Positions 14,444 through 61,955 are shown, counted from the first letter of the whole stretch. The stretch: 62,996 bases of DNA, filler included, from Neolecta irregularis DAH-3 (GCA_001929475.1; 7 parts of 7 records of this genome joined end to end with filler, not necessarily neighbours in it); one strand, 5' to 3'. Numbers and translations are program-made. Notes: generated by a model not told the origin, from the letters alone.

Positions 14444-15295
14444 ATGACGTCCATAGTCCATGCTCTAAGCGATGACCAGGTATCTGCTCCTCCATCTGGT
14501 GTCTGATATGCCGTCAAGGTCAATCAGGAGCTCAAGAAGATGATTGCATTTATCAAGCAGGAGGCAATGGAAAAGGCCAGGGAGGTTCACATCAAGGTAC
14601 CACCCGGCGCCAGGCACGCATCCCACCAGTCTAGGCAGACGAAGAGTTCGCAATCGAAAAGGCCAAGCTTGTCAGGCACGAACAGACTTCCATCGATGCC
14701 AATTACGAAAAGAAAACCAAAGCAGTAAGCATGCAGCAGCAGATTACAAAGAGCAACATTATCAACAGGACCCGTTTGCAAGTTCTCGCCGCGAGACAGG
14801 AAACTCTAGATGGCATCTTTGAAGATGCTAGGCAGAGATTGCCTGATGCGATCCAGACATCGGGACTAAAACCAGAAGAGTTGTACACAAATCTGATTTT
14901 ACAGGCATTGGCATCCTACGCGGTCGTTTTGACACATTCAGGGGTTATATTCACTGATGGAGGAGGTTGTTACGGTCAAGGCAAGAACTAAGGATCATGA
15001 CGTTGTCAATAAAGCTATTTCTTCTGCTGCCAAAAAGTATCAATCACAGACACACCTTCCAGTCAAACTATCCCTCGACGAGAAGAATACTCTTCCTGCT
15101 GAATGGTATATTACCGGCCTAGTCTCAAGAGACTAACAATTCAGCGCCGGAGGTGTCACAATTTCTGGTCTAAATGGGAAAATCGAGATAGTGAACATAC
15201 TTGATGAAAGGCTCCGGCTTTTAGAATCAGAGGCATTGCCCTTCATCCGAGTAACTTTATTCGGGAAAAGCGAGACGAGAAAATTCTTTCATTAG
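14444..15295 (+). CDS. VMA4: V-ATPase V1 subunit E
   Basis: [70 protein letters not shown]. Confidence 0.97.
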
Positions 15296-15439
15296 ACAAG
15301 TTGGGTTGTGTGTGCGCATCAGTCATAGCGAATTATTATTGGAACGCTTATTTCATCGTCATAGAGGTTTTCCTGCTAGTCAATGGCTATTGGATTTGAT
15401 TTCCCATCTTCCAATAGAATGTTTGATAGTTGGTTTAGC

Positions 15440-17140
15440 TCAGGTTCCAGAAGCATACGCCTTGGCACGAAAAATCTGTCAATTGCGTTCTTATTTTCAA
15501 GTTTTAGTTGGTACTTCATTCGAATCGAGGTCTTTTGCATCAGTGACTTTGCCTAAGATGGTTAGGCTGGATTTGGGACTCCTCATATACTTCTGAGCGT
15601 TCGATAAGAATGCCACGGCTGTCATTGATTTTGCCCTGCTTATTGTTGATGGTCTCTGCAAGGGTTTCAGCTTGGTCTCGAGGTAACTGATTGTGGGGGT
15701 CATCTAAAGCCAAGTCGAGGAGGCGAATGAGAAGCTGAATCTCCAGCCAACCATCTTCATTGCTTGTTGATAGCTCCAGGATGCGAGCTGTGTAATTAGG
15801 GACTAAAGAAGCCTGTCTGGTCAGCAGAGTCTTTTTCGACTAAATATATATACATCCGAATTAAGCTTCGACTTGAAATCCTTGTTTTCAAAAAAGGCTG
15901 CAGCGGCCATGTGGCGCCGCACAAGATGCCCACGCTCAGACGTGGCGGGAAGAATTCGCAAAGCTCGATATCGAACAAGGTTTGATGAAGTGACGCTTAT
16001 CAACCAGGTTGTGACGTGTGAAACCAATCCTGATAATTCGACATGGGGGCAGTGCTGCAAGAGCTGATCTAGAGAGAATTCTGCCCTTGGAGATATCAAT
16101 TCGGTGAGTATGGAATCCATTGAGACGAGCATTATGAATTTGAACATGTCGTATAAAACATCAATCGACAATTTGTTAGTCCTGGTTGTTAGAGACCGAG
16201 AGAGGAAAGAACTAGAGACTGTAAAAGGGCGACGCAAATATCAAACACGAGTGCTAATCTCCATGCATACTGTCCAGTGTTTAGATATTTTGGCATTACT
16301 AGAGAATGAGGGAGAAAAGTGAGCGGGAATACCATTTGTTAGCAGGTAAATCTTTCGAGGAATCCTGAGCAAGGCTGTATCACCGCCGAGTGCAGTGACG
16401 GTATTTAAAACTTTATCCCAAATTAAATTTGAAGGTTTCCAATGATTTGATCCCTGATGTCAGCCTGTTCTCGAGCTGAATCTTTTACGATATAAGCCTT
16501 TATGATACTTGCATAAGATGAAGCTAACTGCTGCGAGGTCTCAAAGGCCACTATATATTAGTTAGGGGGACGGGCTGGGATGTAGATAACGTTCGGATAG
16601 CATCCAATGGACCAAGACCAAGGGAGTGTTCTCGCCAGACGTTAGCATGCGTTGGATGTACCCCGATTTGAAATGCAGCATCCGTCTTTCGGGATCTTTG
16701 ATAAGCAAAAGACATCCCTGTTGATAGCGGCTTGCCTTGAAGACAGTCCAGCCAGCCGTTAGCTTGTTCGTTCGGGAAAATCAGATCTCGGCGTCCGAGT
16801 CTTTGCGAGAAGTAAAAATATGCAGGCGGTAGGCGGGCTATGTGACCGGTCTGGACTATATGGGCAAGGGCGTCTGCTGTATTGTTCCCCAAAGCTTCAT
16901 CTAGCAAAGTATTGCGTCCGGCATTTTGCAAGATATCGTCGGTAACTTCAATCTGGGCCAGTGCATCGCATGCTTTGAATCGCTCTTGTTTGTCTTGTCG
17001 TTCTAGTTTCTCGGCAAGCAAGTGTTCCAGGGAAAATTTTGGGATTTTTCTTGTCCTGCTTGTTACTGGTGGTGATTCCGAACCTTGACGAAGCGGTTGA
17101 CTGCGATTAGTGAGCATCCGGTGAAAAAGTACGCTGTCAT
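15440..17140 (-). CDS. Multi-exon hypothetical helical protein; weak resemblance to Nse6/SLF2-type Smc5/6 factors; ends approximate
   Basis: Chain of minus-strand ORFs linked by short introns; N-terminal KFSLEHLLAEK followed by a coiled coil. Confidence 0.6.
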
Positions 17141-17481
17141 TTGATTGCTGCGATTAGGTACGCTGTCAAAAAAGAGGATGTTACAAGGGACACGTCGATA
17201 TACATTCATCATCCCAAACTCCATCAATTCTATAAGTATAAACACGAACAAAAAACGACCTATTGATATTACACCCAATCTACCCAATACACCGAACCGA
17301 AATGGAAAAAAGACAAAAATGTAGCAAAGTGGACACAGAACCCAATGAATAGAAAACGAAGTAGGAGGCATCGAATGAGCGACCGCCCAAAACACCTGTC
17401 CGGGACTATAAGAAACAAGAGGAAGGATCTAGCGAGTAAAAACAAACATGAACAAGGCGGATAAGAATGCAGATGCTATGG

Positions 17482-18882: not shown

Positions 18883-19224
18883 AATATAGAAGCAGCAAAT
18901 AAGAGGATCAGACGGGTGAAGCCAGGCCGACGAGAGAAGGTGGAATCAGGAGTTCTAGACTTTTGAGGGGATTCAAGTTCAGCGGATCAGTGGCCAAGTT
19001 TGTTCTGCAGAGAAGGGCGCGGGCTTAGCCTGCTGATGCTGGCTCGGCTATGGGCGGGGCGGGTGTTTATGTAGCGGCGAGCGGCGAGGCGCGAATGCCA
19101 GCGGCATGGACAAGAATGAGCGAGCCTGGATGTATGCGGCAGGTGGTAGGAGGGTGGTGTAGCGGGTGTGGAAGGGGAGCGGGAGGGATTGGGTGTGGGT
19201 GTGGATAGGGTGGGCGCTAGTAGA

Positions 19225-19445: not shown

Positions 19446-19510
19446 TGTGGGCACTATCAAGTCCCACCGCCCCCACACAACAGCAAACCCAAGATGAGAC
19501 ATAGAGGGCG

Positions 19511-19610
19511 NNNNNNNNNNNNNNNNNNNNNNNNNNNNNNNNNNNNNNNNNNNNTTAATTAATTAANNNNNNNNNNNNNNNNNNNNNNNNNNNNNNNNNN
19601 NNNNNNNNNN
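19511..19610. other. Artificial contig linker N-TTAATTAATTAA-N (also at 51591-51690, 53629-53728, 57124-57223, 58977-59076, 60224-60323)
   Basis: Identical 100-nt spacer with stop codons in all six frames. Confidence 0.99.
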
Positions 19611-20349: not shown

Positions 20350-20749
20350 ATGACCAGAACTACCAAAAACGTGGTCAGCGAGACAGACAGCCGCCATGCT
20401 CCAAAGCACATCTCATCCCCTCCGCTCTCTCCTGACCGTGTAGAAGCAGAGCAGGCATGATGGACCAAAGCCTCAAAAAGAACGGTGCTGGCAAAGCAAA
20501 CTGGTACGTCCCTATCCACTCGCCTCTCTTCCCCTTGCATCCCCGTCACATCATCCTTCTCCAGCATACATGCACTCCCTCTACCCTTCTTTCCCTTGTT
20601 CCCAGTTGACAACCCATAGGGGCGTACAAGGCGAAGAAGTAGAGGACTACATTCCTTCCACCCGACGACGATCAAATTCCTCAGGACGATTGGTTAACGC
20701 AAAAACCAAATTCGAGGAGCCCCTGGACGCTCCGGCTATTGAAGAGTGA
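20350..20749 (+). CDS. STF2/TMA10-like small hydrophilic protein (~81 aa), 2 introns
   Basis: Spliced MTRTTK..SRAGMMDQSLKKNGAGKANWGVQGEEVEDY..RRRSNSS..KTKFE; the KK.G.GK.NWG motif spans intron 2; intron 1 has a GC donor. Confidence 0.85.
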
Positions 20750-28124: not shown

Positions 28125-29421
28125 ATGCAACAGCGAACCCTGCGGTCAACTGCAGCAGCTTCAACTTCCCCCACCAAAAAGCGCAAACGCGATCCAGAAA
28201 CCAATATCGCAGCTCCCCTAATACCCTACTTATTCGCAGCTTTGTCCTCAAAACCAGACTATGGTGTGCTTGATCAACCTATCGACAATGCGACAATTCG
28301 CTATAAATTGAAGACGAGTCAATATTACCGGTTATCGGAAATTGAGGCATACTAATCCCCAAATGAAATTATGAACCAACTGTCTAGGACGATTTAACAT
28401 CCGTTTGTAAAGACCTGGTAGTTCAAATTCCCTCCGTCGACGAATTTTGGCGATTTGCAAAGTCCGTTCTTGCGTCTACCTCAAGAACAAAAGGTATTAT
28501 TGAAGGAGAATCAGACGAACCAGATGATATCGGTATATAGGGTATACTTTATATATCGCTGATAATCAAGCTCCTCCTGCGAGACCATACGAACGACAAG
28601 CACTTTATATACAAGCAAATGGTCAGCCTTTGTTTACCTCTCTTTCCAATAAACCAGTCATTGATCCAATTTTATCCACAACAAGTCTCGCTCAACCCCT
28701 AAACGTAATTCCGTTGCCGTACACCCCAGCTCCAACAATTGGCGCCATTTCCCCTGGAGATAATGACATTGGTCGTCAAATGAAACGTGTATTCCCGGAA
28801 GATACACGTGTGCCTCATTATCCTGGCTTATACTACGGGAATTTCGCATCGTTTGCACCTACTCGAGATTCCAACGAACAAGTCCCAGAGAACGACGCTT
28901 ATATCGAATCAGTTCCTTTCCCCGAACTTGATCTGGACGAACTTGATCTGAAGAACTTGCTTGAGAATTTCCAGGACGAGATAGATGTGGACCATAAACT
29001 GAAAGAAAGGTTTGACTGCACAGACGAACTGGGTTCGATATGTCCCGAGAACATCAACTGCATGCTTCGGTTACTTCAAGAAATGCAATCAACCCGCCTG
29101 CGAATAAGCCAGCACTCTCCAATTTCCGAACAGGAACAATCTCTTGGTATTACCTCTTCAAGTTTTTCCAACATTTTAGCAAACCAAATTCGAGATTATC
29201 TCACCTCACGAATCCTCTCTTTGAAACCCAGCGATTTCGGTCGTGTCAAAAAGACCATACTCACCGAGGGGAAAAGCTATCAAGGATCACTTCCGCCTAT
29301 CCAAGTCCCTATAGCGGCCCCCCCTCCTGTTGCTACTCCGACCATGAAAGCGCCTAGTGAAGATCGAAGTCGTGCCGGGACACCAATAGGGCGTAGAACT
29401 TTACCGAGAAGCAGAAAATGA
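28125..29421 (+). CDS. Rsc58/BRD7-9-like chromatin-remodelling subunit, 2 introns
   Basis: Bromodomain-like IDNATIRYKL...Y..LSEIE|DDL, LFTSL, LYYGNFASFAPTRDS, LRLLQEMQSTR. Confidence 0.6.
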
Positions 29422-32354: not shown

Positions 32355-34278
32355 TTATTTCTTCTTCGACCGTCCATGTTCATGATCGGGAAATAGTTTG
32401 TGGTGGAAACCCACGGTAGCACTGAGCGGAGTAATATCTCTGTCTTTCCCATTTCTAAGTAGATGACCAGCGCGTATTTCAGGTGCCAACAATTCCGTTC
32501 CATCAATTTCCAAATGTGATCTCTTAATGTCATCAGGAGTGACTGGCCGATCTTCAGCGATGGGGCACGATTTAACTGCGGTTTTTGATTCTTTCGAGCC
32601 TCCTTTCCTGTTGGACCTTTCTCTCACAGTCCCATTACTTCTTCGTCGACCTCTGTTCGTTGGGGTAGAAGGTTCCTTAGACGCAGAAAAATCTGTCACT
32701 GCATCTCTTGGTGGCCCACCTGGTTTTAGGAGCGACGTTTCATTTGAAGATTTTATAGGACTTGAGTCCTCTTCTGTTTCTGACCAATTTCGTTTTTTTC
32801 TGATACGCAATGAACGTGGAGATGTGCTCTGCATATTTTCTACATTATTCATCAAAACCTGACCTTGTTCTTGAGCAATTTGGTCGATATCAGTGTCTGC
32901 TTCGCGAACGAATGAAAGGTTATTAATTACTGTCAAATCCTGAAGTCGAAAGGTATCATCTGATGTAGTAGGGTCTGCCAATTTTAAACACTGCAGTTTC
33001 AGAAGTAGAAAAATACCAGTTGAAGATTGTATAAAAGGAATATTAAGGGCGCTTTCTTCAATTAGGGCTTCATTGGAAACATCACCTATTAAGGTTATCA
33101 TTTAGTGCAGCTTTTATACAATACCACAAAATATATTATCTTGGCAAAATCTTTTTTCAGACGCCGTGATGGTCGCATAATCTACTAGATGCATTAGAAA
33201 TTATTGATGCAATGCAGGTATACCGCTAACTGGAGGCTCTGATATCTCGTCCTCCGCCATTTCGTCTCCAACATTCTCTCGTTCATACGGGACCGCTCTG
33301 GTTCGATAGGAGCCCTCATACAAGCTCCCTGATACTACCATATAAGTACCCGACAATATAAGTACGTGCATTCAGTCGATTTCGAAGCATGATCTTGGAT
33401 TGGATCGGAAGATGTGAGGTTTCGTAGGGAAGCCGACATCAAATCTTGACCTTTAACTAACATTCAGGAAAATTCCGCAGAACTTGTATTCGCATACTAA
33501 CTACATCGAATTCGACATGATCAACCTCACTGTCTGATTGCTCATCGCTTGACTCTTCGAATTCAATGTATCCGGCAGTTGTATTGATGATACTGTCAGG
33601 AACTTCGTCTGTCTCGTCTTCACTGTCCAAATTGATAATATGAGATGAGATCGAGAGCTTTTGTGGCTGTACCAAGTGATGTTGCTCGCACAGTGTCTCC
33701 GAATCATCCAGCTGAATGCTGTCTTGAATATGATCGGTTTCGTCCCCATCATTGCTGGAGGTTGCAGGGATGAACTCAGAAGTTCCGACAGGGTCTTGCA
33801 AATATGACCTTCGAGTGCCTTGGTCTGTTAGATCTTCTTCGTTTTCGTAGGCTTCTTCTGAGCTCTCAAACTCTTCTTTGTCTGTTGGTATGACAATAGA
33901 AGCAAAATCCTGGGAATCGCCATCCTTAACATATACCGCCCGCCATTGTTCATGGGGCTCTGTTATTCGGTCTTCTAGATCCTCTAAACGTAAACTGTGT
34001 TCCCTGTATTTCTGAACTGTATCGCTTAGAGTCCCACTAGGACTCTCTGGCTCCTGATTTTGTTCCAAGTGGCTCCAGGAGTTTACTGGCTGTTCTCTCC
34101 GAATAGTCTCGAAACCATGCTGGATCCGCTCCTTTGCAGCATCCCGGATCTTCCGCCTCTTGAAATCAAGGTCAAACGCTTCATTCTCGCGTTTAATACT
34201 TGAAACCCGTTCCTTAAAGGAGGACAGCCATGAACCAAAGTCGTCGGCTTCAAAGGCACCGAGAAAATGGCGCTTCAT
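32355..34278 (-). CDS. Acidic, largely disordered multi-exon hypothetical protein
   Basis: ORFs of 274 and 248 aa joined by short-intron-bounded exons; basic NLS-like patches. Confidence 0.65.
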
Positions 34279-34528: not shown

Positions 34529-35312
34529 ATGCTACTCATTTCACTCTCCGCCTTATTTCTCCCTGTCACTTCCCTCTACTTCTATCTCGAAGGGTCTGAT
34601 AAGCGGTGCTTCCTTGAAGAATTACCAAAAGACACCCTTATGACCGGTATGTTTTAACCTATCATAAATCTGAGGAAAGGCAAAATTCGAGCCGAAGAAT
34701 ACAACAGCGATCAGAACGCTTACGTAGTCAATCCCCAACTTGGCATTCAGATTACTGTTGATGTAAGAGAATTGGATTTAAAGACTGGATTACTTACGGA
34801 TAGGAAACTTTTGACAATGACCATCGAGTCGTCAATCAACGAGCTCAAAGCGAGGGCCGATTCACGTTTACTGCAGCTGAAAGTGGCGAACATAGGATCT
34901 GCTTCCAGACGAATGCCGGAGGCGGATGGTTTACTTCTTCTCATGTCGTAAGTTCAACCATCATGAACATACTAAGCACCTGTAGAAGCTGCATCTCGAT
35001 CTCGCAACTGGAGATACCAGTTCTATTGATTCAAAGTCTGATGAGAAGTATAAGGATTTACTTCAGCGAATCAGTGATCTTAACTCTCGGCTACACGATA
35101 TCCGGCGAGAGCAGTTATTTCAGCGGGTATGTTTTCCGTAGTTCTCTATCTAACAATGATAGGATCGGGAAGCTGATTTTCGCAACATTTCCGAAAATGT
35201 AAACACACGAGTTATTCGATGGACAGTCATACAATTTCTTGTTTTAGGGGCAACATGTGCATGGCAGCTATCTCATTTGACGACATTCTTTACCAAACAG
35301 AAGTTAGTTTAA
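34529..35312 (+). CDS. p24 alpha (emp24/gp25L) cargo receptor, Erp1/TMED9-like
   Basis: [52 protein letters not shown] tail. Confidence 0.95.
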
Positions 35313-35329
35313 CTATTTCTCTAAAATAA

Positions 35330-35842
35330 TCAGGATGTAGCAGATTCGGGGGATGATGAAATCCAAGTTATAGTTATGGATAGGTAGATATCGCTGGCAG
35401 CTTGTTTGACCGTAACGCTTCCTACCAATAAGCCTTTTCGCATTTTAGGCAATTGCCATCTTTTTCAATTTCCCAGAATCCGCCTTGAGCGTTAAATAAT
35501 CCTCTCCCATTTCCTTCCTGGTAAACGGTCACGTTGACGATGTATTTGTATCCAGACTCTTTACATTCCTTTAGCTGCCTCAAGATTCCTGTCTAAAATA
35601 ATCAGTCATCCGGCCTGCTGAGGAACGCGTATGATCAATGATTTCGACCATCCTTGTGCACTTGTGTGGGTATATACTGGCTCCGGTGGAAATACTGTGT
35701 TTATCTGAGAGGCGCAGAAATCGAGGATTTGCAATTCGGAGAAGGGCTGGATTCTCTTTAGTCGTCCAATCCCATTGATTATAGGAAAACATACACAATT
35801 CGATGGGAATGGAGAGGATACACTTGGCACCTTTGAGGTCAT
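35330..35842 (-). CDS. Tctex-1-type dynein light chain, 3 introns
   Basis: VYTHTSAQGWSKSLI|TGILRQL..GYKYIVNVTVYQ..GRGLFNAQGGFWEIEKDG|SVTVK..IYLSITITWIS. Confidence 0.85.
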
Positions 35843-42831: not shown

Positions 42832-44194
<1,363 letters not shown>

Positions 44195-48496: not shown

Positions 48497-50234
48497 TTAC
48501 TCTAATTTCATCTCGTGCATCTCATCTAATAGTTCCTCTATTGGAATCTCGGGAAAATCAGCATCATCCTCATCTTCACCTACGATTCCTTCATCGAGTC
48601 CCTCCATTTTGGTCGGCCGGTCCTTGTGTTTATAAACATTGACCCTATCCATTAGCTATAGTTCCTGGAATCAAATCCCACATAGAACGCATTTCAGTAT
48701 CCTCTTCTAGATCCCGAAGAAATTCTTCATAGTCTCGTTCCTGTTTTTCAATATCTTGCTTCCGTGGGTTCATTTCCGTTTGCTCCTTGGATAACGTGCG
48801 CAACTTCCAGTTCCGAGTTTTGTTCTTCTTTCTTCGATTTGGATAACTCTTTTTCACGAGAATAATATCTGGAAGTAAAGACTGATCGAGTGATTCGTAC
48901 TCGGGGTCGTTGAAGTTTGTAGTCGTTAAATGATAGCCCCTAGCGGTATCTCCTGGTTTCAGAATCGCGCCGAGATGAGTTCGTACTGTATATTGTTGAT
49001 CATTTACGCCTAGATCCGAACTCTTTGCGATTTCGACGTCTGCGAGGGCAAGTCGCCCGTGCGTTTGGCCCAGAAGCTCTACATCCAATACAGTGAATTC
49101 AACCAACTCATGGATATCAGCGAGGGTGCAAAATGGTGTACGCCAGTATACAGGACATGCCACGTCCGTTGTTCGTAGAGTCAAAGGGTCGATAAGGTGT
49201 ATAGAATTTCCGACTCTACTACAAAGTAGTAGCTGACTAACGCAAATCAGGATTATGAACCACCCTAGATTGCACCTGATGTTCCCTAAGCTTTTTGCAA
49301 GTTTCCCAGACAGGCAAACCAAATCATCCTTACAGATCGGGATTAACTCAACAGACCATGTAAACTTATACGTATTAGTAGACGTATGAACATCCATACT
49401 GATCAACTCTTCGCTTTTCTTAGTTCTAACGGGAACAACATTATTCAGAAAATCAACCATTTTGATAGCCCCATTCCTTGAAGGATAGAAGAAGTCCAAG
49501 CCATCTTTTACTTCAACGATATTATTACAATCTCGATGAGCATTATGTTTGAGAATAAGTTGTTCAAGATATAAAAATGTCCGTTTATGCTGCACCTTTT
49601 GACGGATCTGAACGGACGCTTTCCAAGTATTTTTAGCATGAAGTTTAGCACAATCGAGACATTGTTGATTCGTTACAACATATTCGACTTCAAAGGACTG
49701 CTGTAGAATTGTCGATACAAATGCTTCTTTTTGGATGGTTAGTTTTACTCGAACACGTCGAGAATGAGGTTCTGTCCAGATAAACCCTGCATCAATTAAC
49801 CGGACCTGCCATGATGAGAGAGAATTTCGCTAGAATGACATGCTTTGTTTAATCCGCGAAGCTTTCGAAGACAAAGAGCGAGGAGTTCACGACTCTCTGG
49901 TTGTGCGTTGACCCACTGACTTGGTGGCGAAAGAAATCGCTGAATTTGTTAGTATGACCTGGGCAACAGTTGTACTTCGCAACTCCGACAAAAGTTCAAC
50001 ACCGCTTCCCTTGGTATTCCTCATGTAAGGATAAGTAAACGAGAATTTTTGCACCTTCAGTGATATCGGTGGAAGTCTTCAAGCAATCGATACACATAGC
50101 CGCAGGGTTATGTCTAATGAAAATCAGCCGCTGAACTGTAAAAGAGCATACAGGATTGGAATACCGCATGAACAGCATAGAATTGTCGCAATCTGTTCAT
50201 CCATAACCATCTGTTCATCCACAAGATTTTCCAT
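48497..50234 (-). CDS. NMD3: 60S export adaptor Nmd3
   Basis: ILCCSCG, ESRELLALCL, LIDAGFIWTEPHSRR, WKASVQIRQKVQHKRTFLYLEQLILKH, RDYEEFLRDLEED. Confidence 0.97.
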
Positions 50235-51190: not shown

Positions 51191-51690
51191 GGTGGATGTT
51201 CAAGAGCAAATTGGTCTGTCAGCAGGAAAAGACAATGCACACGTGACGTGCTCCGATCGCCGTAGCAAAATACAACAGACATGCATAGTGGAAGCATGCC
51301 TTATGAAACTGCGTGCTATGGTAAGATAAGCCTGGAAACAGTCTAACTGTAATGAGACTCATTGTCCGCCATGACTTACAGATATTTAAAAAGATCGCTT
51401 CAACAAGAGTGTGGGGTTCCATGAACCCCACAGCCACCATCCAAGTTCAAGCCTGACCCCCAGATGCAAACACGACGAATGACCGCATGAGGAGTGAGTA
51501 GACCTAATAGAGGCACTCGTGGACCGGGTTACTAAATCTGTAGAGGCTGGAGAAGGTACGACTACCCATTCAATGGAGTCTTGACATGTANNNNNNNNNN
51601 NNNNNNNNNNNNNNNNNNNNNNNNNNNNNNNNNNTTAATTAATTAANNNNNNNNNNNNNNNNNNNNNNNNNNNNNNNNNNNNNNNNNNNN

Positions 51691-52242
51691 GTCTCTTTCT
51701 CTTTCTCTGTCGGTTCTCTCTATGTCGGTTCTCTCTCTGTCGGTTCTCTCTCTGTCCGTTCTCTCTCTGTCGGTTCTTTCTCTGTCGGTTCTCTCTCTGT
51801 CGGTTCTCTCTCTTTCTCGGTCCGTTCTGTCCGTTCTTTCTCTGTCAGTTCTCTCTCTTTCTCTTTCACTTCTGTCCGTTCTGTCCGTTCTCTCTCTTTC
51901 TCGGTCCGTTCTGTCGGTTCTGTCGGTTCTCTCTTCTCTATCCATTCTCTCTTCTCTATCCACTCTCTCTCCTCTATCCATTCTCTCTTCTCTATCCACT
52001 CTCTCTCGTGGTCTATCCGGATTATCCACTCTCCCTCGTTCTCTCTCTCCCTCGCGAGGAAAAGATGGCGATATCGACCGGCGCCTGCTGTCAGAATCGC
52101 CACTATACCTTCCGCACCAAATATTTCTCGGCCTCGGCGTTCTCCACGCTCCCGGCGGCGACTCCTCTACAGTTTCTCGGGCGCGCGGCCGGTACGAATC
52201 GCCAACCCCGCGAGGGCGATAGTAGCGGTCCAGTCCGGTCAT
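51691..52242 (-). CDS. RE/RD-rich nuclear-type protein, 5' part (runs into the gap)
   Basis: MTGLDRYYRPRGVGDSYRP..RRRSISP followed by (RERTD)n repeats. Confidence 0.7.
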
Positions 52243-52268
52243 GTTCAGAAATACCCCCGCCAAACACC

Positions 52269-52664
52269 ATGACCCATTTCCACTTTCGGTCCCTGTTTCT
52301 CCTACTCGCTCTCGCATATGCTGAAACAAGCTATATCGTCACCCTTGGAAAAAACTCTTGTCTCTCAGATCTCAAAAATGCAGAAAACTACGTCACTTCT
52401 CAAGGCGGAAAAATCATAAACGAATACACAACCCTCATTTGGTTTGCTCCCCCTGGCCCATGCTGACTATAGCGGTTTCGCTGTAAGCTTCAACTCGGAC
52501 TCGGTCAACGCTGCTCTCGTCCAACAGACTCTTTCTGATCTGGAAAGCAAATATCCAGGCATCAGCGTCGAGAAAAACCAACAGCTTCGTATGTACATGA
52601 TATTGTCCCTCTAACATGAGATCTGCTCAATCCCCAGTCCTCGCCAAGCAAACGAGGGTTGTAA
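52269..52664 (+). CDS. Small secreted peptidase inhibitor I9 (subtilisin-propeptide-like); stop at 52614 if the last intron is not used
   Basis: Signal peptide, SYIVTL, V.SQGGKIINEY, GFAV, VEKNQ. Confidence 0.85.
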
Positions 52665-52732
52665 CATCCTCAAGCGAGAATGTAACATCCTCAAACGAGG
52701 TTGTAACATCCTCAAACGAGGTTGTCATCCTC
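52650..52732. repeat. 21-bp tandem repeat (AAACGAGGTTGTAACATCCTC) x4
   Basis: Directly visible tandem units. Confidence 0.9.
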
Positions 52733-52777
52733 AGTTGTAGATTATATATTATGATTGCTGTTTTATTNNNNNNNNNN

Positions 52778-53628
52778 GTAGCTTTCGTCCCGCGCCTCCC
52801 GCTCAATCGCCTCCCACCGCCGCTGCGACTCCCGCTTGCCCGCCTGCAGCCCGCTGATGTCCGCCTTGAGCCCCGCAATCTGCTCCTCCAGCTTCTCCAG
52901 CTGCCGTCAGCCCGCTCTCCTCCACACATACCTCCGCCCCGTGCCTTGCGTCCATCTTGCTCCACCGCTTGTTGTAGCCCCGTCCGTAGTCTGAATGTGT
53001 GTACCGAGGCCCCGTAGGTGTGTTTCGCCGTCCTTCTCGCGGTCCCGTAGGTGTAGAATATACTTGTCTTGTCCGTTCTCTATCGTTTGCGTTTTCTCTT
53101 TCGTTTCGGCGGTCGGTCGTGTTTCTTCTGTCTCTGTCTGTTGTGTCTCTTTCTCTTTCTCTGTCGGTTCTCTCTATGTCGGTTCTCTCTCTGTCGGTTC
53201 TCTCTCTGTCGGTTCTCTCTCTGTCGGTTCTCTCTCTGTCGGTTCTCTCTCTTTCTCTTTCACTTCTGTCCGTTCTGTCCGTTCTCTCTCTTTCTCTGTC
53301 CGTTCTGTCGGTTCTGTCGGTTCTCTCTCTTTCTCTTTCACTTCTGTCGGTTCTGTCGGTTCTCTCTCTTTCTCGGTCCGTTCTGTCGGTTCTCTCTCTT
53401 TCTCTATCCACTCTCTCTCGTGGTCTATCCGGACTATCCACTCTCTCTTCTCTATCCACTCTCTCTCCTCTATCCATTCTCTCTCGTGGTCTATCCGGAC
53501 TATCCACTCTCTCTCGTGGTCTATCCGGATTATCCACTCTCCCTCGTTCTCTCTCTCCCTCACGAGGAAAAGATGGCGATATCGACCGGCGCCTGCTGTC
53601 AGAATCGCCACTATACCTTCCGCACCAA
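52778..53628 (-). CDS. RE/RD-rich protein, overlapping second copy and 3' part
   Basis: Same sequence as 51691-52119 with different repeat counts, then two PTGPR motifs and, after an intron, the coiled coil LEKLEEQIAGLKADISGLQAGKRESQRRWEAIERE. Confidence 0.7.
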
Positions 53629-54067
53629 NNNNNNNNNNNNNNNNNNNNNNNNNNNNNNNNNNNNNNNNNNNNTTAATTAATTAANNNNNNNNNNNNNNNN
53701 NNNNNNNNNNNNNNNNNNNNNNNNNNNNTACACGGCTCTCAGTAATTGGATCTAGTGCAAAAAGTAAGAGCGAACCACAGCATTCACCGACGTCATGAAG
53801 AGTGGATATATTGACCTCCCTAAGGAGGAATTGGATGCGAGTGATGGGGGACACATCCGTGTGTATACAGACTCTCGACAGCGAAGTGAAGATATTTTTC
53901 CCATGCTTGGATTTTATGGTGTCGTAACCTGCGGCTTCTACAGTCGGCTGTTTGGAAGGATGTTGCAGAAGATATTGTTACTGGGTGATCCGGTTGGATG
54001 ATAATGCTATCAAATGCACTTTGATTTGTTTTATCGAAGACCTGCAGATAATGTGTCTCTAGCCAAA

Positions 54068-54269
54068 TGTTGGGATTCCGTGATAGTTCCCCATTTGGAC
54101 CCTAACCCTGTTTGCCTACGCCCTTGACCCGCTGCGCTGCTAAACTGAGCACTGCTTGCCTCGCCTGCTCGCTTCCTCTCGCTCCCCTACCCTCCTCGCC
54201 TGTTACTGCCCCGCCCCTCCTGACCCATTACCGCCCGCCCTCGCCCATTACCGCCGTCTTATCACAACA
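54068..54269. mobile_element. Solo-LTR-like segment (TG..CA)
   Basis: Termini TGTTGGGAT and ATCACAACA form an 8/9 inverted match; C-rich interior; no target-site duplication seen. Confidence 0.35.
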
Positions 54270-54287
54270 CTGGTGATTGTATAGCTG

Positions 54288-54395
54288 GATGTACACTGAT
54301 AGTGTTGAACAAGGCAATTATATACCTGAATATACTGCAAGTGTGGTTTTATGAATATCAGGAACACTGCAAAAGGAACAAGGCATGAAATCACA
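54288..54395 (-). repeat. Inverted repeat copy A
   Basis: 54347-54395 matches the reverse complement of ~55823-55871 with one mismatch; weaker similarity continues outward. Confidence 0.9.
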
Positions 54396-54586
54396 AGAGG
54401 CGTGCGAGGAGGGCGAGATGGGAGAGACCGGCGAGACGGCTATCATAATACAACGACAATGAAACCACCGAGACCACCGATGGAGAAAGCATCGAAGCCG
54501 AAACAAACCCCTGAAGATTGGCCAAGTCATTGTGACTCAAGTCTTGGGGTCGTCGATACCCCAAAGTGTCTTGACCTTCCCATCCG

Positions 54587-54637
54587 AATCCATTTCAGCA
54601 AGCAATGCATATGGAAAAGATGTGTACATCTTCCCAT
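54587..54637 (-). pseudogene. APC11-like RING-H2 gene fragment
   Basis: MGRCTHLFHMHCLLKWI matches the Apc11 G.C.H.FHMHC..KW motif; the flanking Cys pairs are absent. Confidence 0.6.
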
Positions 54638-55305
54638 ACTGGAATTAACAGCGATACCGAAATAGAGAAATGCGATTGACCAGAACTAGGAGATAGGAGC
54701 GAATACCGGCATTCTGGCGGCCCGATGATTCTCGGAATAGTCTGGACGCGGCTGTGCAGCAAAATGGGGCCATATGACGCCTTGAACAGAAAGCTGTAAG
54801 TTTGAATCCGGTGTTTTATTCGGTCTAATGTGAAGCGCGCCTATTTATATCAATGAAGTCTTCGTTGCACATACTTTCCCGGATGCTGAGATACCAGCAG
54901 GCAACTCGGAACTTTGCGACTCGAACACCGCGAGGAACAATATAATTCGACGGCGCGGCTTGGGAGTGAGTTTTCGCAGATATCGGTGTCGGCACTCGGA
55001 ACTTGGAAATTCCATCGCAGAGTCTACCTGGCCTGGCTTGATTTCAAGACCCAATCGCTTTTATACGCACCTTTGATATGCCTATTAATACACCCTTTAG
55101 CATAACCTGCTTTCACACAATCCGACGAGCCGCAGTTTATAGTAGAAAGGTATAAATATTCCANNNNNNNNNNCTTGATATGCCTATTAATACACCATTT
55201 GTTCTATACCCCTAGCATAACCTGCTTTCACACAATCCGACGAGCCGCAGTTTATAGTAGAAAGGTATAAATATTCCATCATGTTCGTCTCAACTACTCA
55301 TCACA

Positions 55306-55722
55306 ATGAATCTCCTCGTTATTATCATCAGTTTCGCCTGTGCAGTGCTTTCAGATGAATATGATAACATTGGCCTCGATATACATATAGACTCGGTCAC
55401 TCATCCTCTTTACACCGCGAGCGACAATCTACTTTGGGATCCCGCCAATGGGCAAATTGGCAACTTCAATATCAACAATGACGACCACATACTTACTGAC
55501 AAGAATGGCTATGAGCTCCACTCGAATAGTGACAAACTTGTATTTCAGCTCAACTCGGGAAATGCTGCAGTTCCTGTTAGATCTGTTAACAATAGGGTGG
55601 AACACTCTGAAAATGGGGCGTGGTTTGAAACGTTCTATGTATGCTTGGGAACCTCAAATGACTACAATGTTTACGCATTCGAAGCGAACAATTGTAATAC
55701 GAAAGCAAAGATTACTTGGTAA
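55306..55722 (+). CDS. Small secreted protein, 138 aa, intronless, C-terminal Cys pair
   Basis: TATAAA at ~55266, CACAATG start, signal peptide MNLLVIIISFACAVLS, beta-rich body ending FYVC..NNC. Confidence 0.8.
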   Translation: MNLLVIIISFACAVLSDEYDNIGLDIHIDSVTHPLYTASDNLLWDPANGQIGNFNINNDDHILTDKNGYELHSNSDKLVFQLNSGNAAVPVRSVNNRVEHSENGAWFETFYVCLGTSNDYNVYAFEANNCNTKAKITW

Positions 55723-55822
55723 GGACGTTGCTTGCATTTAATAGTCTAACAAGCTAGGTATTCTTGAGTGGAATGGATGACTATTTCTAAGAGGCTATTT
55801 GATTTGTATTCAATAGAAGTGA

Positions 55823-55925
55823 TGTGATTTCATGCCTTGTTTCTTTTGCAGTGTTCCTGATATTCATAAAATTGCTTGCGGTACATCCAGTATACAACTG
55901 CCTTCTACACTATCATCGTACACCC
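55823..55925 (+). repeat. Inverted repeat copy B (starts TGTGA, LTR-end-like)
   Basis: Reverse complement of 54288-54395. Confidence 0.9.
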
Positions 55926-56515
55926 CTGCGTGGCCGTCTTGGGACCAGAGTGGTCTGGATACGGAAAAGCAGCGACAGCAGTGCTGGACTCGCCAACGAG
56001 GATGCACAGGCGGGGCGGGAGCGGCATTGACTCGGCCAGCGCAGATTACAAAGACTCGAGAATAACCCGCGAGCCCTGTCGGCAAATCAGGGCTGGCGTT
56101 GCCCTCGGAGATCAAACAGCGATTCCCACCGCAGGCCTACTCCCGCTGGCCATAGGACAGTGTTGGGGCCGGGCCATGAAAAGCCCGCCCATCCCGAAAC
56201 GGGCATTTCCACGTGATATTAGAGAGGGCAGCCCTTGCCCTTCACGGTATCATCCTTCTGCCTTCCACCCGCCTTGCCTGCCAGTCTCGCCAGCCTCTCC
56301 CATCGCTCGCGCCACTCGCGAGTACCTCCCGTCCCGCCTCTCCAATCGAGCTGGATGAGACTGGCAGGTAGTGAGGATAAATAGCTTAGATAATAATACA
56401 CATCCAGGGGAGGTCCCCAGCAGTCGCTTTAGTAAATATGGTGAATGTGAACTTTAATATAACAGGGATTTGTCTGTTTCTTCCCTCACTCACTCAGTCA
56501 CCAATCTCGACATTG

Positions 56516-57002
56516 CTAGTCACTATGTTGTAAGTAAAATCCTTTCAACAGCTGGTTTTTCCGGTGCAGAACAGAGATGCGGAGTGTGAACTGAAAACAG
56601 TTATCGCTCCTACCCGATTGAATTGTTTTCTTGTTATTGCACGAATGAAATTCGGCGTGAGCACCTTGGTCGTCAAGGTATTGAAAAGACTGCTCTGACG
56701 TCCTGAAATAAGTTGTGGACTTGGTATCGTGGGAATAGAATTGGTAATGGTCGCTCTCCCATTTCGCTACATTATCATTGGCCTCGTCCTTGTTAGAGTA
56801 GCGCAAATTTTGATGTTTGTCAACGAAGAATGTCCCACATCCTTTATTAGTCGAATGATATATTAAAATATATTTTTCAACTTGCGCACAGTTCCCCTCG
56901 CCTTGTTCCAAGTGTAACTCTAGGTAGACATGTTATTTACCTATCCAACTCTCAGTCGCCTAGCTCTTGATATCTTGACAATACCAGCATCAAGTGCTAA
57001 TT
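56516..57002 (-). pseudogene. Probable decayed distant paralog of the 55306 secreted protein
   Basis: Similar layout (YLELHLE..GTFFVD..AEFHSC..DNCFQFTL); no in-frame ATG; in-frame TAA upstream; TCACA-ATT where the intact gene has TCACA-ATG. Confidence 0.45.
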
Positions 57003-57223
57003 GTGAAAGAATTTAGTGAGGCAGGTGATATGCTTGAGCCTCGTCGATTTAAACTTCAGCCAGATATTATTGCAGCAGCCCAGTGCCAGCGAAGCTGGGG
57101 TCGGAATGACTTTGTGAATTGGTNNNNNNNNNNNNNNNNNNNNNNNNNNNNNNNNNNNNNNNNNNNNTTAATTAATTAANNNNNNNNNNNNNNNNNNNNN
57201 NNNNNNNNNNNNNNNNNNNNNNN

Positions 57224-58830
57224 GCCTTTGCCTCCCTTCCTCACTCCTGTCCCTCCTGCCTGCCTTTGTCTCCCTCCATTCAATCTCTAATTCAATGAAC
57301 CCAAGATCCTACTCAAGCATTCTCTCAATTGAGGTCTCTTGATTCACCTATTAAGGTCTCTCAATTAGCCAACTGATCCTCATATGAATAGGACTCTCAG
57401 TATCTCAATCTCTCAAGTCTCTCTGAACTTTGTAGACTGGTTCAACCAAATACACAAAGTATCTTTGGCAACTCTTGATCTACTTGGAACTAGTGCAATT
57501 GGCAAACCAGGTAAAAATTTATGTATAATACTAAAATTCTTGCTAACTGGTGAAGGAGGCACACTATCCAGGAGTGCTTTTACCAGTTTACCATTAATTA
57601 TTACCATGATTAATGAAGACTTCATCATGAAATGTAGTGGCTGGGTCTGAGGGTGACCCAATTCCTCATCTTCTTCTAGGCCCATATGCACTGACTGGAT
57701 TGTGTCTGAAACAGCCCCCCTAGTCAGTTTAGCATATCTAGCCAGGAACAAAGGAGATGGTATTTCCTTGAGATCACCTGAGGTAAGATTTACATCCTCC
57801 ATAGTCAGGAGAATAGCTGCCTTTATTTCTGTGAGATCCTGGGGCATGAGTTCACAATCCATTATGTTGACAAGATTTGAGGCAGGAGTTCTAGATGATT
57901 TCAATTCTTGACTAAAAGCCTTACAGCTGCCAGGGATAATCCTAAGATGGGACCAACCATAGTAGTGAATGGGATGTCTTCAAGTTGTTTAATCAATGTA
58001 GGAGATACATCAATATTTGCAACTGGTGCAGGCTTAACTACCCACTTCTGTCCTGGTTTGGGGTTCATTGCTGGGGCAGCAGTAACTGGAATCTACCACC
58101 CATACTTCGAGGGTCAAGGTGTTGCTGCAGCCCAGACATCCACTATAGTCTCTTCAATGATTTTATCTTCAGGTGTGATAGGTCCTAGGGTAATCATCCA
58201 AGCATTAAGAGTTGGAGTTAATAGAGGGTGGGTCTTCTGTCCACCTGGTCTGAAGTAGAGGGGAATGACTTGACCATTCTTATCCTCCAACTTCTTGTCA
58301 TCATTAATGAGGACCAGACCAGACTTCAAAGCTTATTGAAAATCTGGGCAGTTGTTATGGGAATGATCCAAGGCATTACACCAGATGTATCTAAAAGGCT
58401 TATCTCCTGATGCAGTGCTAACTGTGTTAACCCTGGTCATTGGGGATGCTGCTGTTCCAATTCTAGACTCAAGAGCTCTGATTTTTACCTGAAGGGACAT
58501 CATTACTTCACCATCAGCATAATATTGAACACAGGGTAGGGCAAGGTTAGCCTTGGGGAGTACCATCACATGTTCACTCCATTCAATAGCCTCTCTCAGG
58601 GCCTCATGTGCAAGGGCAATAACCTTCTTGAAGGGGACTATTCCTTCAGAATCCTTGTGAGGGTGGATTGCCAACTGGATGGCAATCCGTTGCAGTTCAG
58701 TGAAGCTCTCAAGAAAGAGTGCATGCTGCTGGTATTGGGATAAGGCCTGGCAGTGGTGTAATGAATCGACTGATGTTGAATCCAATGATGGATTCATGAA
58801 TCTGATACAAATCAAGTTTGGGATTTGAAT
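57224..58830 (-). mobile_element. Degenerate Ty3/gypsy LTR-retrotransposon gag-protease relic
   Basis: Decayed zinc knuckle YIWCNALDHSHNNC followed by GLVLINDDKKLEDKNGQVIP; protease-like VIINGKLVKALLDS; internal stops and frameshifts. Confidence 0.8.
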
Positions 58831-59076
58831 TGATTCAATGGTTCAAAACAAAGATATAAATAGTATTATAATATTAAATTTCCATTTTAGGGTATCTTAT
58901 TATATTTAGAATTAGCTAAAAATAATTTTATAACTATAATATTTTCTATAACAAGGTTAATATCAATATACTTCTTNNNNNNNNNNNNNNNNNNNNNNNN
59001 NNNNNNNNNNNNNNNNNNNNTTAATTAATTAANNNNNNNNNNNNNNNNNNNNNNNNNNNNNNNNNNNNNNNNNNNN

Positions 59077-59216
59077 TGATAATAAATTATAAGCTATGAT
59101 AACATATTGTAACCTATTACAACATATGGTAAGCTATGATAAAATATTTTAAGCTATGATAACCAACTATAATCCATTATAAGCTATGATAACCCATTGT
59201 AACCCGTGTAACTCAN
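59077..59216. repeat. AT-rich satellite with 10-bp period (second copy of ~60038-60156)
   Basis: TAAGCTATGA / TAACATATTG / TAACCCATTG units. Confidence 0.9.
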
Positions 59217-59914
59217 NNNNNNNNNTACCACTAGACCGCATCTGGTGTTCATACTAACCACCAGAGCGAACTCCTTACATAAACATGATTGTGTTATACA
59301 AATTGTACTAATAAATCTTGTGTGACACTCCTGGAGGTGTTACTGAGTAATTAACAATAAACAAGTTTAATATTTCAGAAGATACAAAGAGAGAATAATA
59401 TATATAATAGTGAGGACAATATAATAAACTAAAGAAAGGTTATTAATTAACATACATTATGTAATGTTAAACTATGATCAAACAATGTTGTACTATATAA
59501 TAATACATAGGACAGGCAAATAGAAAGTAGTTTAAGGAGTTTGATCTTGTGTTATTAAGAATAACAGAATCTGTCTAGTGGTAGAAGGTTATAGAAGGTA
59601 ATGGAATATGCCACTATATTCTGTAGCTGCTAATTAGTGGCCTTATTATATTATAAGTAGATTTCTATCTATTGTACTATTTTCTATTACTGTTTTATCT
59701 GCTATGGTGGTTCATTTCCTTATGGTAATTAAGGGCTATTGTTATTATATAGTTCCTATACTAGTTTTGGCTAACCTCTACCTTGTACCTACTTCTGTTA
59801 TATACTGGTTCAAAGTTACTCTAGTCCTATTAGTGAAGCATGCCCTTGTGACATGTTTACAGATATTGTGATATAATATATAAGCTATATAATTCAATAT
59901 AATGTTGTTTAACT

Positions 59915-60223
59915 GATTGTAACCCATTATAGCCTATGATAAACAATTTTAACCCATGATAATACATTGTAATTAATGATAACACATTTTAATCAATGAT
60001 AACATATTTGTAACCCATTATAATATATTGTAACTTATGATAATAAATTATAAGCTATGATAACATATTGTAACCTATTACAACATATGGTAAGCTATGA
60101 TAACCAACTATAATCCATTATAAGCTATGATAACCCATTGTAACCCGTGTAACTCATTGGATATTATAATTTTAATCATTGTATTATAATCTAACCCCGT
60201 CTGAGTGTATGAATAGCTAACCC
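59915..60223. repeat. AT-rich satellite with 10-bp period and TAACCC-like core
   Basis: More than 20 degenerate TAAC(C/A)(C/T)AT(T/G)(A/G) units; the contig ends in CTAACCC. Confidence 0.85.
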
Positions 60224-60323
60224 NNNNNNNNNNNNNNNNNNNNNNNNNNNNNNNNNNNNNNNNNNNNTTAATTAATTAANNNNNNNNNNNNNNNNNNNNN
60301 NNNNNNNNNNNNNNNNNNNNNNN

Positions 60324-61955
60324 CTCGAGGAACGATCACATATCTTGCGGAGAAAGGGACCTATACACTTGAAGCACTTTGGGTTAGGTTAAGTGACACT
60401 GATATTTTTAGGATGACGTACTGGAAATCGAGTTTGAAGGACAAAAGTCGAAGCATAAAATGATGCATACATGGCCAGTCCGGTCTCCTCGACCTGTAAC
60501 AGAGAAATTGGTCGCAAACCATCCACTCTTGACTGGTCAAAGAGTTCTGGATGCTCTTTTTCCGTACAGTTATAATTTAGCAGTGGTTACATCTCTAGGA
60601 ATGTTCAAGGCGGTACAACTGCCATTCCAGGCGCTTTCGGTTGCGGCAAGACTGTTATCTCTCAGTCACTATCCAAGTACTCAAATTCGGACATCATTAT
60701 CTATGTAGGGTGTGGCGAGAGAGGAAATGAGATGGCAGAAGTTCTGATGGATTTTCCCGAGGTATATGCTGAAATATTCGCCTTGTGACAGCAAGCTCTC
60801 AATTGAAATCGATGGTCGCCGCGAACCTATCATGAAGAGGACTTGCTTGGTCGCAAACACTTCCAACATGCCCGTTGCTGCACGAGAAGCATCTATTTAT
60901 ACGGGTATTACTATTGCTGAATACTTCAGAGATCAGGGCAAGAATGTTGCGATGATGGCGGATTCTACTTCGCGATGGGCTGAAGCTTTGCGCGAGATTT
61001 CTGGCAAGTTGTAGCCAATTTTGGGACTGAATCTTAGGACGGCTTGCTGAAATGCCTGCTGATTCTGGATATCCTGCCTACCTTGGTGCCAAGGTGTGAG
61101 TTCTTTGCCTCTAGACTTACTTTATAGTTGGCATCGTTCTATGAAAGGGCTGGAAAAGCAGTATGTCTGGGAAGCCCCTGCCGGGAAGGCACGGTGTCTA
61201 TTGTTGGAGCTGTGTCGCCGCCTGGGGGTGACTTTAGTGATCCTGTGACGTCTTCGACGCTTGGAATTGTGCAGGTCTTTTGGGGTCTGGACAAGAAGTT
61301 GGCGCAACGAAAGCACTTTCCTTCTGTCAACTGGTCTGTTAGTTACAGTGTGCACCAATTTCTACATGGCGCTTATTACGAGGCAAGTATACGAATGTTT
61401 TGCAGGCGTGGTATGAAAAAAACGAGCCCGACTTTACGGATCTTCGTGACAAAGTCAAAGAGATTCTCCAATGCGAGGAAGATCTCTCTGAAATTGTCCA
61501 GCTTGTTGGCAAGGTTTGTGGGAGTTTGTCGCAGTTTTGATTTGATAGAGCGCTTTAGCCGAGTCTGACAAGGTTACGCTTGAGGTAGCTCGGCTGATCA
61601 AGGATGACTTTCTGCAGCAGAATGGGTAGATGAGAGTGGGGACATTTGCTAATGGCAGGTACTCTAACTATGATCGCTACTGTCCTCTTTACAAGACGAC
61701 GGCGATGTTGAAAGGGCTTGTTGGTTTCTATAACCACGCGCAGACGGCCGTTGGGACGGGAGTCATTTCCTGGGCTCAAATCCGGGATAAGATGGGGCCG
61801 GTGATGCACGGGCTGCAGTCGATGAAGTTTGAGGTAGGACTTGAAAGAAAGGGTGCTGATTACAGGATCCGGCAGATGGAGAAGAGGTATTGAGGGAGCG
61901 ATACGAGAGACTAGTTGTGGATATGAACGAAAAGTTCCGAGCACTAGTTGACTAG
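60324..61955 (+). CDS. VMA1: V-ATPase catalytic subunit A, 5'-truncated by the gap, no intein
   Basis: [59 protein letters not shown]. Confidence 0.98.

What the first reader, a model, noticed from the sequence alone, without database searches (positions are those of the whole stretch)
14905..61037. Frequent weak GC-AG introns in conserved genes
Seen: the reconstructed protein sequence calls for GC donors in VMA4 (14905 GCATTG), STF2-like (20406 GCACAT), RSC58-like (28347 GCATAC), Tctex-1 (35456 GCAATT), NMD3 (49843 GCATGT) and VMA1 (60374 GCACTT, 61004 GCAAGT). Known: GC-AG introns are usually about 1% of introns and compensate with a near-perfect GCAAGT; only one of these seven does. GT donors are also degenerate (GTTTTT, GTAAAA). 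Inference: a spliceosome with relaxed 5' splice-site recognition acting on very short introns.
Basis: partly seen in the sequence, partly recalled or inferred. Interest (0 to 1): 0.7.

Follow-up and report, generated by a model that had tools for sequence, protein, structure and literature searches.

The report
Many GC-AG introns in Neolecta genes
In this stretch of the fungus Neolecta irregularis about one tiny intron in fourteen begins with GC instead of the usual GT, several times the fungal norm, which matters mainly because routine gene prediction misses such introns and gives faulty proteins.

Summary
The window is Neolecta irregularis DAH-3: several contigs joined by N linkers.

- **Strong support (four):** NMD3, both VMA1 introns and VMA4. 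Evidence: my own profile HMMs, Pfam coordinates and alignment to solved V-ATPase subunit E.
- **Good support (one):** Tctex-1.
- **Moderate support (two):** the bromodomain ("RSC58-like") gene and the STF2-like gene.

The public models checked for two of these genes (NMD3 and the bromodomain gene) use poor GT alternatives instead.

A uniform parse of 28 gene spans gave 104 introns. Eight were GC-AG: the seven claimed plus one new candidate. The fungal average is 1.009% (PMC7072748).

Allowing GC as a second donor raised the summed parse score by 50.9 bits. Fourteen decoy dinucleotides gave 2.4-25.4 bits.

GC donors match the species' own weak consensus, AG|GTATGT, no better than GT donors do. 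So there is no visible compensation.

No RNA run could be listed, and no snRNA gene lies in the window. Relaxed splice-site recognition therefore stays an inference.

The scan found the same thing before on three other pieces of this genome. No paper in the library names both Neolecta and GC-AG.

The parts
14905..14941 (+). GC-AG intron (37 nt, GCATTG) in VMA4, third of four introns
   Evidence: Pfam PF01991 positions run 105|106 across the junction. The downstream exon aligns from residue 1 to residue 123 of solved human subunit E. Intron matrix 13.3 bits; best GT alternative 3.7.
20406..20443 (+). GC-AG intron (38 nt, GCACAT) in the small STF2-like gene; the least certain of the seven
   Evidence: Intron matrix 11.5 bits; best in-frame GT-AG -2.6. 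No homologues were retrieved.
28347..28387 (+). GC-AG intron (41 nt, GCATAC) in a weakly bromodomain-like gene ("RSC58-like")
   Evidence: The only in-frame GT-AG options are 95-104 nt long and score -5.7 and -8.5. Public model P0241 uses one of them and scores 13.8 bits on Bromodomain, against 18.4 for the first-exon ORF alone. Parse gain with GC allowed is 10.3 bits.
35422..35456 (-). GC-AG intron (35 nt, GCAATT) in Tctex-1, last of three introns
   Evidence: The upstream exon reaches Pfam PF03645 position 77 of 95 at its last residue. Zero residues are expected and found between the anchors. Matrix 13.4 bits against 7.9 for the GT alternative.
49806..49843 (-). GC-AG intron (38 nt, GCATGT) in NMD3, fourth of five introns
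   Evidence: HMM of 50 homologues: 269.5 bits against 241.6 for the best GT-AG. Matrix 15.7 against 0.7.
60374..60411 (+). GC-AG intron (38 nt, GCACTT) in VMA1 (gene cut by the contig start)
   Evidence: HMM of 57 homologues: 103.8 bits against 96.2 for a 29-nt GT-AG that would add three residues. Matrix 13.5 against 5.2.
61004..61037 (+). GC-AG intron (34 nt, GCAAGT) in VMA1
   Evidence: HMM 189.5 bits, with no in-frame GT-AG candidate.
33335..33369 (-). Candidate eighth GC-AG intron (35 nt, GCACGT) in an acidic protein gene with no Pfam family
   Evidence: Chosen by the span-restricted parse, matrix 14 bits. Parse gain 10.3 bits. No homology check was possible.
49787..49839 (-). 53-nt GT-AG intron used by the public NMD3 model P0001 in place of the GC-AG intron
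   Evidence: P0001 lacks seven conserved residues at this point. HMM 241.6 bits; matrix -0.8.
28318..28421 (+). 104-nt GT-AG intron of my GT-only model, which is one residue longer than public model P0241; whether P0241 uses exactly this intron was not checked by alignment
   Evidence: GT-only parse. P0241 matches the first exon only up to residue 69. Matrix -8.5.
14444..15295 (+). VMA4 gene: 4 introns, 3 GT and 1 GC
20350..20749 (+). STF2-like gene: 2 introns, 1 GC and 1 GT (116 nt)
28125..29421 (+). Bromodomain-like gene: at least 2 introns, 1 GC and 1 GT
35330..35842 (-). Tctex-1 gene: 3 introns, 2 GT and 1 GC. The two GT introns were placed by hand.
48497..50234 (-). NMD3 gene: 5 introns, 4 GT and 1 GC
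60326..61955 (+). VMA1 gene, 5' part missing at the contig edge: 9 introns, 7 GT and 2 GC

Best explanation
These are genuine spliceosomal (U2-type) GC-AG introns of Neolecta irregularis. In this species they make up roughly 5-8% of introns instead of about 1%.

**Shown**
- The GC-AG boundaries are the ones that restore conserved protein sequence.
- The introns look like the neighbouring GT-AG introns in every other respect. They are 34-41 nt long, have A at +3, a branch-like CTNAY motif 6-9 nt before the 3' AG, and Y at -3.
- Their donor flanks are no closer to the consensus than those of GT introns.

**Inferred**
- In this fungus the 5' splice site carries very little information beyond G+1, a pyrimidine at +2 and A+3.
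- Intron recognition therefore probably leans on the whole tiny intron (31-47 nt with a branch point close to the 3' end).
- A T-to-C change at +2 would then cost little and persist.
For: - **Identity:** the NMD3 exon is 96% identical to the NCBI Neolecta irregularis DAH-3 protein.
- **Homology-scored junctions:** NMD3 269.5 against 241.6 bits. VMA1 103.8 against 96.2 bits, and 189.5 bits with no in-frame GT-AG.
- **VMA4:** Pfam continuity 105|106, and a solved subunit E aligned from the first residue of the downstream exon.
- **Tctex-1:** Pfam anchor with zero residues of slack.
- **Intron matrix:** trained on GT introns only, it puts all seven at 8.4-15.7 bits. In-frame GT alternatives score at most 7.9.
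- **Homology-free control:** allowing GC as a second donor in 28 gene spans raises the summed parse score by 50.9 bits. The 14 decoy dinucleotides give 2.4-25.4 bits. Four genes gain 8 bits or more with GC, against none for 13 decoys and one for TA.
- **Census:** 8 GC of 104 predicted introns. The curated set holds 31 GT and 7 GC.
- **No compensation:** flank score 1.51 against 1.21 bits, p = 0.79.
- **Not U12-type:** none of the seven donors has the ATCC-type U12 motif.
- **Base errors unlikely:** the published assembly has 199-fold coverage (PMC5309816, passage seen).
Against: - No RNA evidence: no RNA run could be listed, so excision is inferred from protein conservation only.
- Two of the seven rest on weak ground. 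For STF2-like no homologue was retrieved, and its parse gain is only 2.6 bits.
- The bromodomain match of the "RSC58-like" gene is below Pfam's cut-off, 18.4 against 21.7 bits.
The window rate depends on the flagged genes and on an ab initio denominator.
- Counting donor types in the parser's output does not single out GC: 8 GC against 4-14 for decoys, and 12 against 6-18 in the whole-window parse.
- Nothing was learned about U1, U6 or spliceosomal proteins.
Confidence: 0.8

Rival explanations
1. The spliceosome is ordinary. GC donors are slightly harmful T-to-C mutations that drift to fixation because the donor site is under weak selection in this lineage. They may be spliced less efficiently than GT donors. 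The pattern is the same but needs no change in the machinery.
For: GC introns are indistinguishable from GT introns outside +2. All seven keep A at +3. U2-type spliceosomes in general accept GC donors, about 1% in fungi (PMC7072748 Table 1).
Against: A rate five to eight times the fungal mean, in essential single-copy genes such as VMA1 and NMD3, suggests the cost is small here. That in itself is a property of the recognition system. The data cannot separate the two readings.
Confidence: 0.3
2. The nearby GT donors chosen by the public models are the ones really used, and the proteins simply differ from their homologues at these points.
For: In-frame GT-AG alternatives exist for six of the seven junctions. 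Public models P0001 and P0241 use such alternatives.
Against: The GT alternatives cost 28 bits in NMD3 and 7.6 bits in VMA1, where the intron would be 29 nt and shorter than any curated intron. In VMA1 at 61004 no alternative exists. They score -5.7 to 7.9 bits on the intron matrix against 8.4-15.7 for GC. One lowers the Bromodomain score.
Confidence: 0.07
3. The C at +2 is an assembly or base-calling error, or one allele of a T/C polymorphism.
For: The assembly is fragmented: N50 is 16 kb (PMC5309816 passage) and the window is stitched from short contigs.
Against: It would need seven or eight independent errors at exactly position +2 of required introns, at 199-fold coverage. The same excess was noted on three other pieces of the genome (unchecked notes).
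Confidence: 0.03

Closest known systems
Ordinary U2-type GC-AG introns of fungi (1.009% of annotated fungal introns; Frey and Pucker 2020, PMC7072748, Table 1 and passages seen)
   Same: Same terminal dinucleotides, same host gene types, and no U12 motifs.
   Different: The frequency here is about 5-8% in one window. The donors show no extra match to the consensus. The introns are only 34-41 nt long.
Elevated GC/AG introns of the cyst nematodes Globodera rostochiensis and G. pallida (3.46%; PMC4901422, passages seen)
   Same: An excess of GC donors in a genome of moderate G+C. GT and GC sites share the same local composition. Automated prediction missed them until GC was allowed.
   Different: In Globodera both classes follow a strong CAGG[T|C]AAGT consensus and RNA-seq supports the junctions. 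Here the consensus is weak for both classes and no RNA could be examined.
Very abundant GC-AG introns in Aureococcus anophagefferens (39.6%), Micromonas pusilla (22.2%) and Chlorella sp. (7.7%) (Iwata and Gotoh 2011, PMC3033335, passages seen)
   Same: GC-AG fractions far above 1%. The cause is unexplained, and the U1 RNA sequence does not account for it.
   Different: Those genomes have 64-70% G+C. This window has 35-54% per 3-kb bin, and the published genome has 44%.
U12-type (minor spliceosome) introns
   Same: They are also non-GT-AG in part.
   Different: No ATCC-type donor in any of the seven. The branch motif is the same CTNAY as in the GT introns.

Membership tests
U2-type GC-AG intron | Begins with GC and ends with AG at boundaries that restore the reading frame | tested here: met
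   All seven.
U2-type GC-AG intron | Removal restores sequence conserved in homologues | tested here: met
   Met for NMD3, VMA1 (both introns), VMA4 and Tctex-1. Only indirect for the bromodomain gene. Not testable for STF2-like.
U2-type GC-AG intron | Absent from the mature mRNA | not testable with these tools
   No RNA run was listed, so no reads could be laid.
U2-type GC-AG intron | Branch site and 3' end like those of the species' GT-AG introns | tested here: met
   A matrix trained on GT introns scores the seven at 8.4-15.7 bits. Lengths are 34-41 nt, inside the 31-47 range of GT introns.
Compensated GC-AG intron (near-perfect consensus outside +2, as described for animals and plants; recalled, and seen for Globodera in PMC4901422) | Donor flanks closer to the consensus than in GT introns | tested here: not met
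   Flank score 1.51 against 1.21 bits, p = 0.79. Mean matches to ATGT at +3..+6 are 2.43 against 2.13. The sample is only n = 7.
U12-type intron | Donor of the ATCC type at +3..+6 and a TCCTTAAC-like branch site (motifs recalled) | tested here: not met
   The donor hexamers are GCATTG, GCACAT, GCATAC, GCAATT, GCATGT, GCACTT and GCAAGT.

The most novel reading that the evidence does not exclude
Neolecta's spliceosome may pick the 5' splice site of its 31-47-nt introns mainly by its distance from the branch point and 3' end, acting as a molecular ruler across the intron. Base pairing of U1 and U6 with positions +2 to +6 would then matter much less. Under that reading C at +2 is nearly neutral. 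The AT-AG and GT-TG introns noted on other pieces of this genome would be further signs of the same relaxed end recognition.
Probability: 0.25. Interest if true: 0.65.

Novelty: new member of a known kind. Interest (0 to 1): 0.4.

Why it matters
**Practical.** The two public Neolecta models I checked that span GC introns (NMD3 and the bromodomain gene) are wrong at the junction. At a 5-8% rate and the published 4.3 introns per gene, a sizeable share of the proteome would carry such local errors. These feed into comparative studies of this key early-diverging multicellular ascomycete.

**Biological.** A moderate-G+C fungus with near-minimal introns, weak donors and many GC donors would be a natural test case for how much of the 5' splice-site signal a U2-type spliceosome can do without.

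Tried and rejected
- **RNA evidence.** The look-up of sequencing runs (kind rna) listed no RNA holder, so none was listed and read laying could not be used.
- **Whole genome.** None is held, so U1, U6, U1C and Prp8 could not be inspected. Rfam found nothing in the window.
- **Whole-window ab initio parser with decoy donors.** GC was used 12 times and decoys 6-18 times. It was not discriminating, and it merged neighbouring genes.
- **Intron-matrix counts by first dinucleotide**, alone and with ORF context. GC was not above the decoys.
- **Counting donor types in span-restricted parses.** GC 8 against decoys 4-14. Only the gain in parse score separated GC from the decoys.
- **STF2-like gene.**
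  - The homologue search found nothing.
  - The Atlas gave no usable hit.
  - Pfam found no family.
- **"RSC58-like" gene.** The representative search returned only the species' own public model. Its second exon alone has no Pfam match.
- **Tctex-1 last exon.** The search against solved structures gave only a chance antibody match.
- **GC candidates rejected as shadows of GT introns or as lying inside conserved exons.**
  - 12059-12099 in the MADS-box gene.
  - 34976-35013 and 34922-34952 in EMP24.
  - 18128-18091 in HSF.
  - 5554-5586 and 4433-4470 in P450.
- **Left unresolved.** The NIPA-like gene near 13729-13693, the PBP1 LsmAD junction and the hydrolase junction near 43500.
Full report
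**What the window is.** It is 62,996 bases with 568 N. The N runs flank short stop-codon linkers, so several contigs have been stitched together. The largest NMD3 exon is 96% identical to the NCBI protein [quoted passage not shown] (P0001). No whole genome is held for the window. G+C is 35-54% per 3-kb bin.

**The observation.** The coordinates are in the parts list.

**NMD3.** I built a profile HMM from 50 of the 120 listed homologues: those of at least 480 residues, with the species' own model left out. I then scored every excision that keeps the frame open around the junction, 1192 candidates in all.
- The best was a 38-nt excision at 269.5 bits. Of its four equivalent placements, only GC-AG is a known intron class.
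- The best GT-AG scored 241.6 bits. It is the 53-nt intron of public model P0001, which loses seven conserved residues.

**VMA1.** The gene is cut at the contig edge. An HMM from 57 of the 120 listed homologues (600-640 residues) placed nine introns.
- Seven are GT-AG. One of them, at 61348-61382, I placed by hand because my scan range missed it. The GT-only parser later chose it on its own.
- Two are GC-AG. At 60374 the GC intron scores 103.8 bits, against 96.2 for a 29-nt GT-AG that adds three residues.
- At 61004 the GC intron scores 189.5 bits, and no in-frame GT-AG exists.

**VMA4.** The Pfam profile of subunit E runs from position 105 at the last residue of the upstream exon to 106 at the first residue of the next. 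The downstream exon aligns from its first residue to residue 123 of solved human subunit E. The upstream exon aligns to residues 34-109 of the same protein.

**Tctex-1.** The upstream exon reaches Pfam position 77 of 95 at its last residue. With the GC-AG intron, the number of residues between the two anchors is exactly as expected. The short last exon found nothing among solved structures.

**The "RSC58-like" gene.**
- Its only family signal is a Bromodomain match of 18.4 bits, below Pfam's cut-off of 21.7.
- A search of 1.84 billion representatives with its first exon returned only the species' own public model, P0241.
- That model departs from the first exon after residue 69, and its Bromodomain score falls to 13.8 bits.
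- The only in-frame GT-AG choices are 95-104 nt long and score -5.7 and -8.5 on my intron matrix. The GC-AG intron scores 8.4.

**The STF2-like gene.** No homologue could be fetched, and the family name rests on recalled motifs. The GC-AG intron scores 11.5 bits, against -2.6 for the best in-frame GT-AG. This junction is the least certain.

**Is GC special, or would any dinucleotide do?**
- Three controls failed to tell. These were a whole-window parser with decoy donors, matrix-only counts and counts with ORF context. Near-equivalent "shadow" sites beside true introns flood the decoys.
- Counting donor types in parses restricted to 28 gene spans also failed: GC 8, decoys 4-14.
- The gain in parse score did separate them. 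Adding GC to GT raised the summed score by 50.9 bits. The 14 decoys gave 2.4-25.4 bits, with a mean of 16.9 and sd of 6.1 by my arithmetic on the numbers.
- Four genes gained 8 bits or more with GC. None did for 13 decoys, and one did for TA.
- Much of the decoy gain fell in the very genes that hold GC introns, where a GT-only parse is broken.

**How frequent?**
- The uniform parse gave 104 introns in 28 gene spans. Eight were GC-AG: the seven claimed plus a new candidate at 33369-33335.
- This denominator is ab initio. Twelve of its introns coincide with junctions I anchored on Pfam coordinates.
- My evidence-curated set holds 31 GT-AG and 7 GC-AG introns. It is biased towards the flagged genes.
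- In nine unflagged genes, 0 of the 13 curated introns were GC.
- The genome paper's supplement gives 4.3 introns per gene and a mean intron length of 42 bp (PMC5309816, supplement 1, passages seen). That fits roughly 100-140 introns in this window.
- At a 1% rate, seven or more GC-AG among 100 introns has P = 7e-5, and among 130 introns P = 4e-4.
- Three earlier follow-ups on other pieces of the genome reported one in 12-20. Those notes are unchecked.

**Are the GC donors weak?**
- The species' own GT consensus is a weak AG|GTATGT. Among the 31 curated GT introns, A at +3 occurs in 24, T at +4 in 15, G at +5 in 14, T at +6 in 13 and G at -1 in 18.
- Scored on positions -3..-1 and +3..+6, GC donors reach 1.51 +/- 1.49 bits. 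GT donors reach 1.21 +/- 2.02 bits, leave-one-out (Mann-Whitney p = 0.79).
- So there is no visible compensation, with n = 7. All seven GC donors do keep A at +3.
- Measured against GTATGT instead of GCAAGT, NMD3's donor is a full match.
- GC introns are 34-41 nt long, inside the GT range of 31-47 with one outlier of 116 nt.
- They carry the same branch-like CTNAY 6-9 nt before the 3' end.

**What it most likely is.**
- These are ordinary U2-type introns with C at +2, unusually common in a fungus whose introns are near the minimum workable size and whose donor sites carry little information.
- That the machinery itself is relaxed is an inference.
- A drift reading fits the same data.

**Comparison with what is known.**
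- Fungi average 1.009% GC-AG (PMC7072748, Table 1, seen).
- Higher rates are in print for cyst nematodes at 3.46%, where automated prediction also missed them (PMC4901422, passages).
- They are also in print for three G+C-rich algae at 7.7-39.6% (PMC3033335, passages).
- No paper in the searched library holds both "Neolecta" and "GC-AG".
- The main text of the genome paper has no occurrence of intron, splice, RNA-seq, transcriptome or gene prediction.
- Its supplement 1 mentions introns only for density and length. I did not read the other supplement files in full.

**Verdict.** It is a new member of a known kind, already seen by this scan on other DNA of the same genome.

Noticed in passing
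window 19511-19610, 51591-51690, 53629-53728, 57124-57223, 58977-59076, 60224-60323: Six N...linker...N joints that carry a short six-frame stop sequence. The window is a chain of separate contigs, so neighbourhood across these joints means nothing. VMA1 starts at a contig edge and lacks its 5' part.
   Followed up: partly
window 49787-49839 (-) and 28318-28421 (+): Public protein models P0001 (NMD3) and P0241 (bromodomain gene) avoid the GC donors with longer GT-AG introns and so lose conserved residues.
   Followed up: yes
window 33335-33369 (-): A candidate eighth GC-AG intron (GCACGT, 35 nt, matrix 14 bits) near the 3' end of an acidic protein gene with no Pfam family.
   Followed up: partly
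window 13693-13729 (-): In a NIPA/EamA-like transporter gene, a GC-AG candidate competes with GT-AG options. It scored 14.0 bits in one placement and 8.7 in another. The junction could not be resolved from Pfam coordinates.
   Followed up: partly
window 423-465 (-): In RPL14 the GT-AG intron (GTACAG, 43 nt) scores only 3.6 bits on the intron matrix. An AT-AG placement 6 nt inside it scores 16.2 bits. I kept GT because it gives the spacing I recall from other L14e proteins. AT-AG introns were noted elsewhere in this genome.
   Followed up: partly
window 59077-60223: A small AT-rich contig (35% G+C in its 3-kb bin) with many near-repeats of a roughly 10-base unit around 60000-60200. It has no Pfam hit.
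   Followed up: no
window 51691-59076: Several short contigs with long ORFs of low-complexity, Glu/Arg/Thr-rich translation and no Pfam family. They may be repeats or non-coding DNA.
   Followed up: no
window 20504-20619 (+): The second intron of the STF2-like gene is 116 nt long and pyrimidine-rich. It is the only curated intron outside the 31-47-nt range.
   Followed up: no
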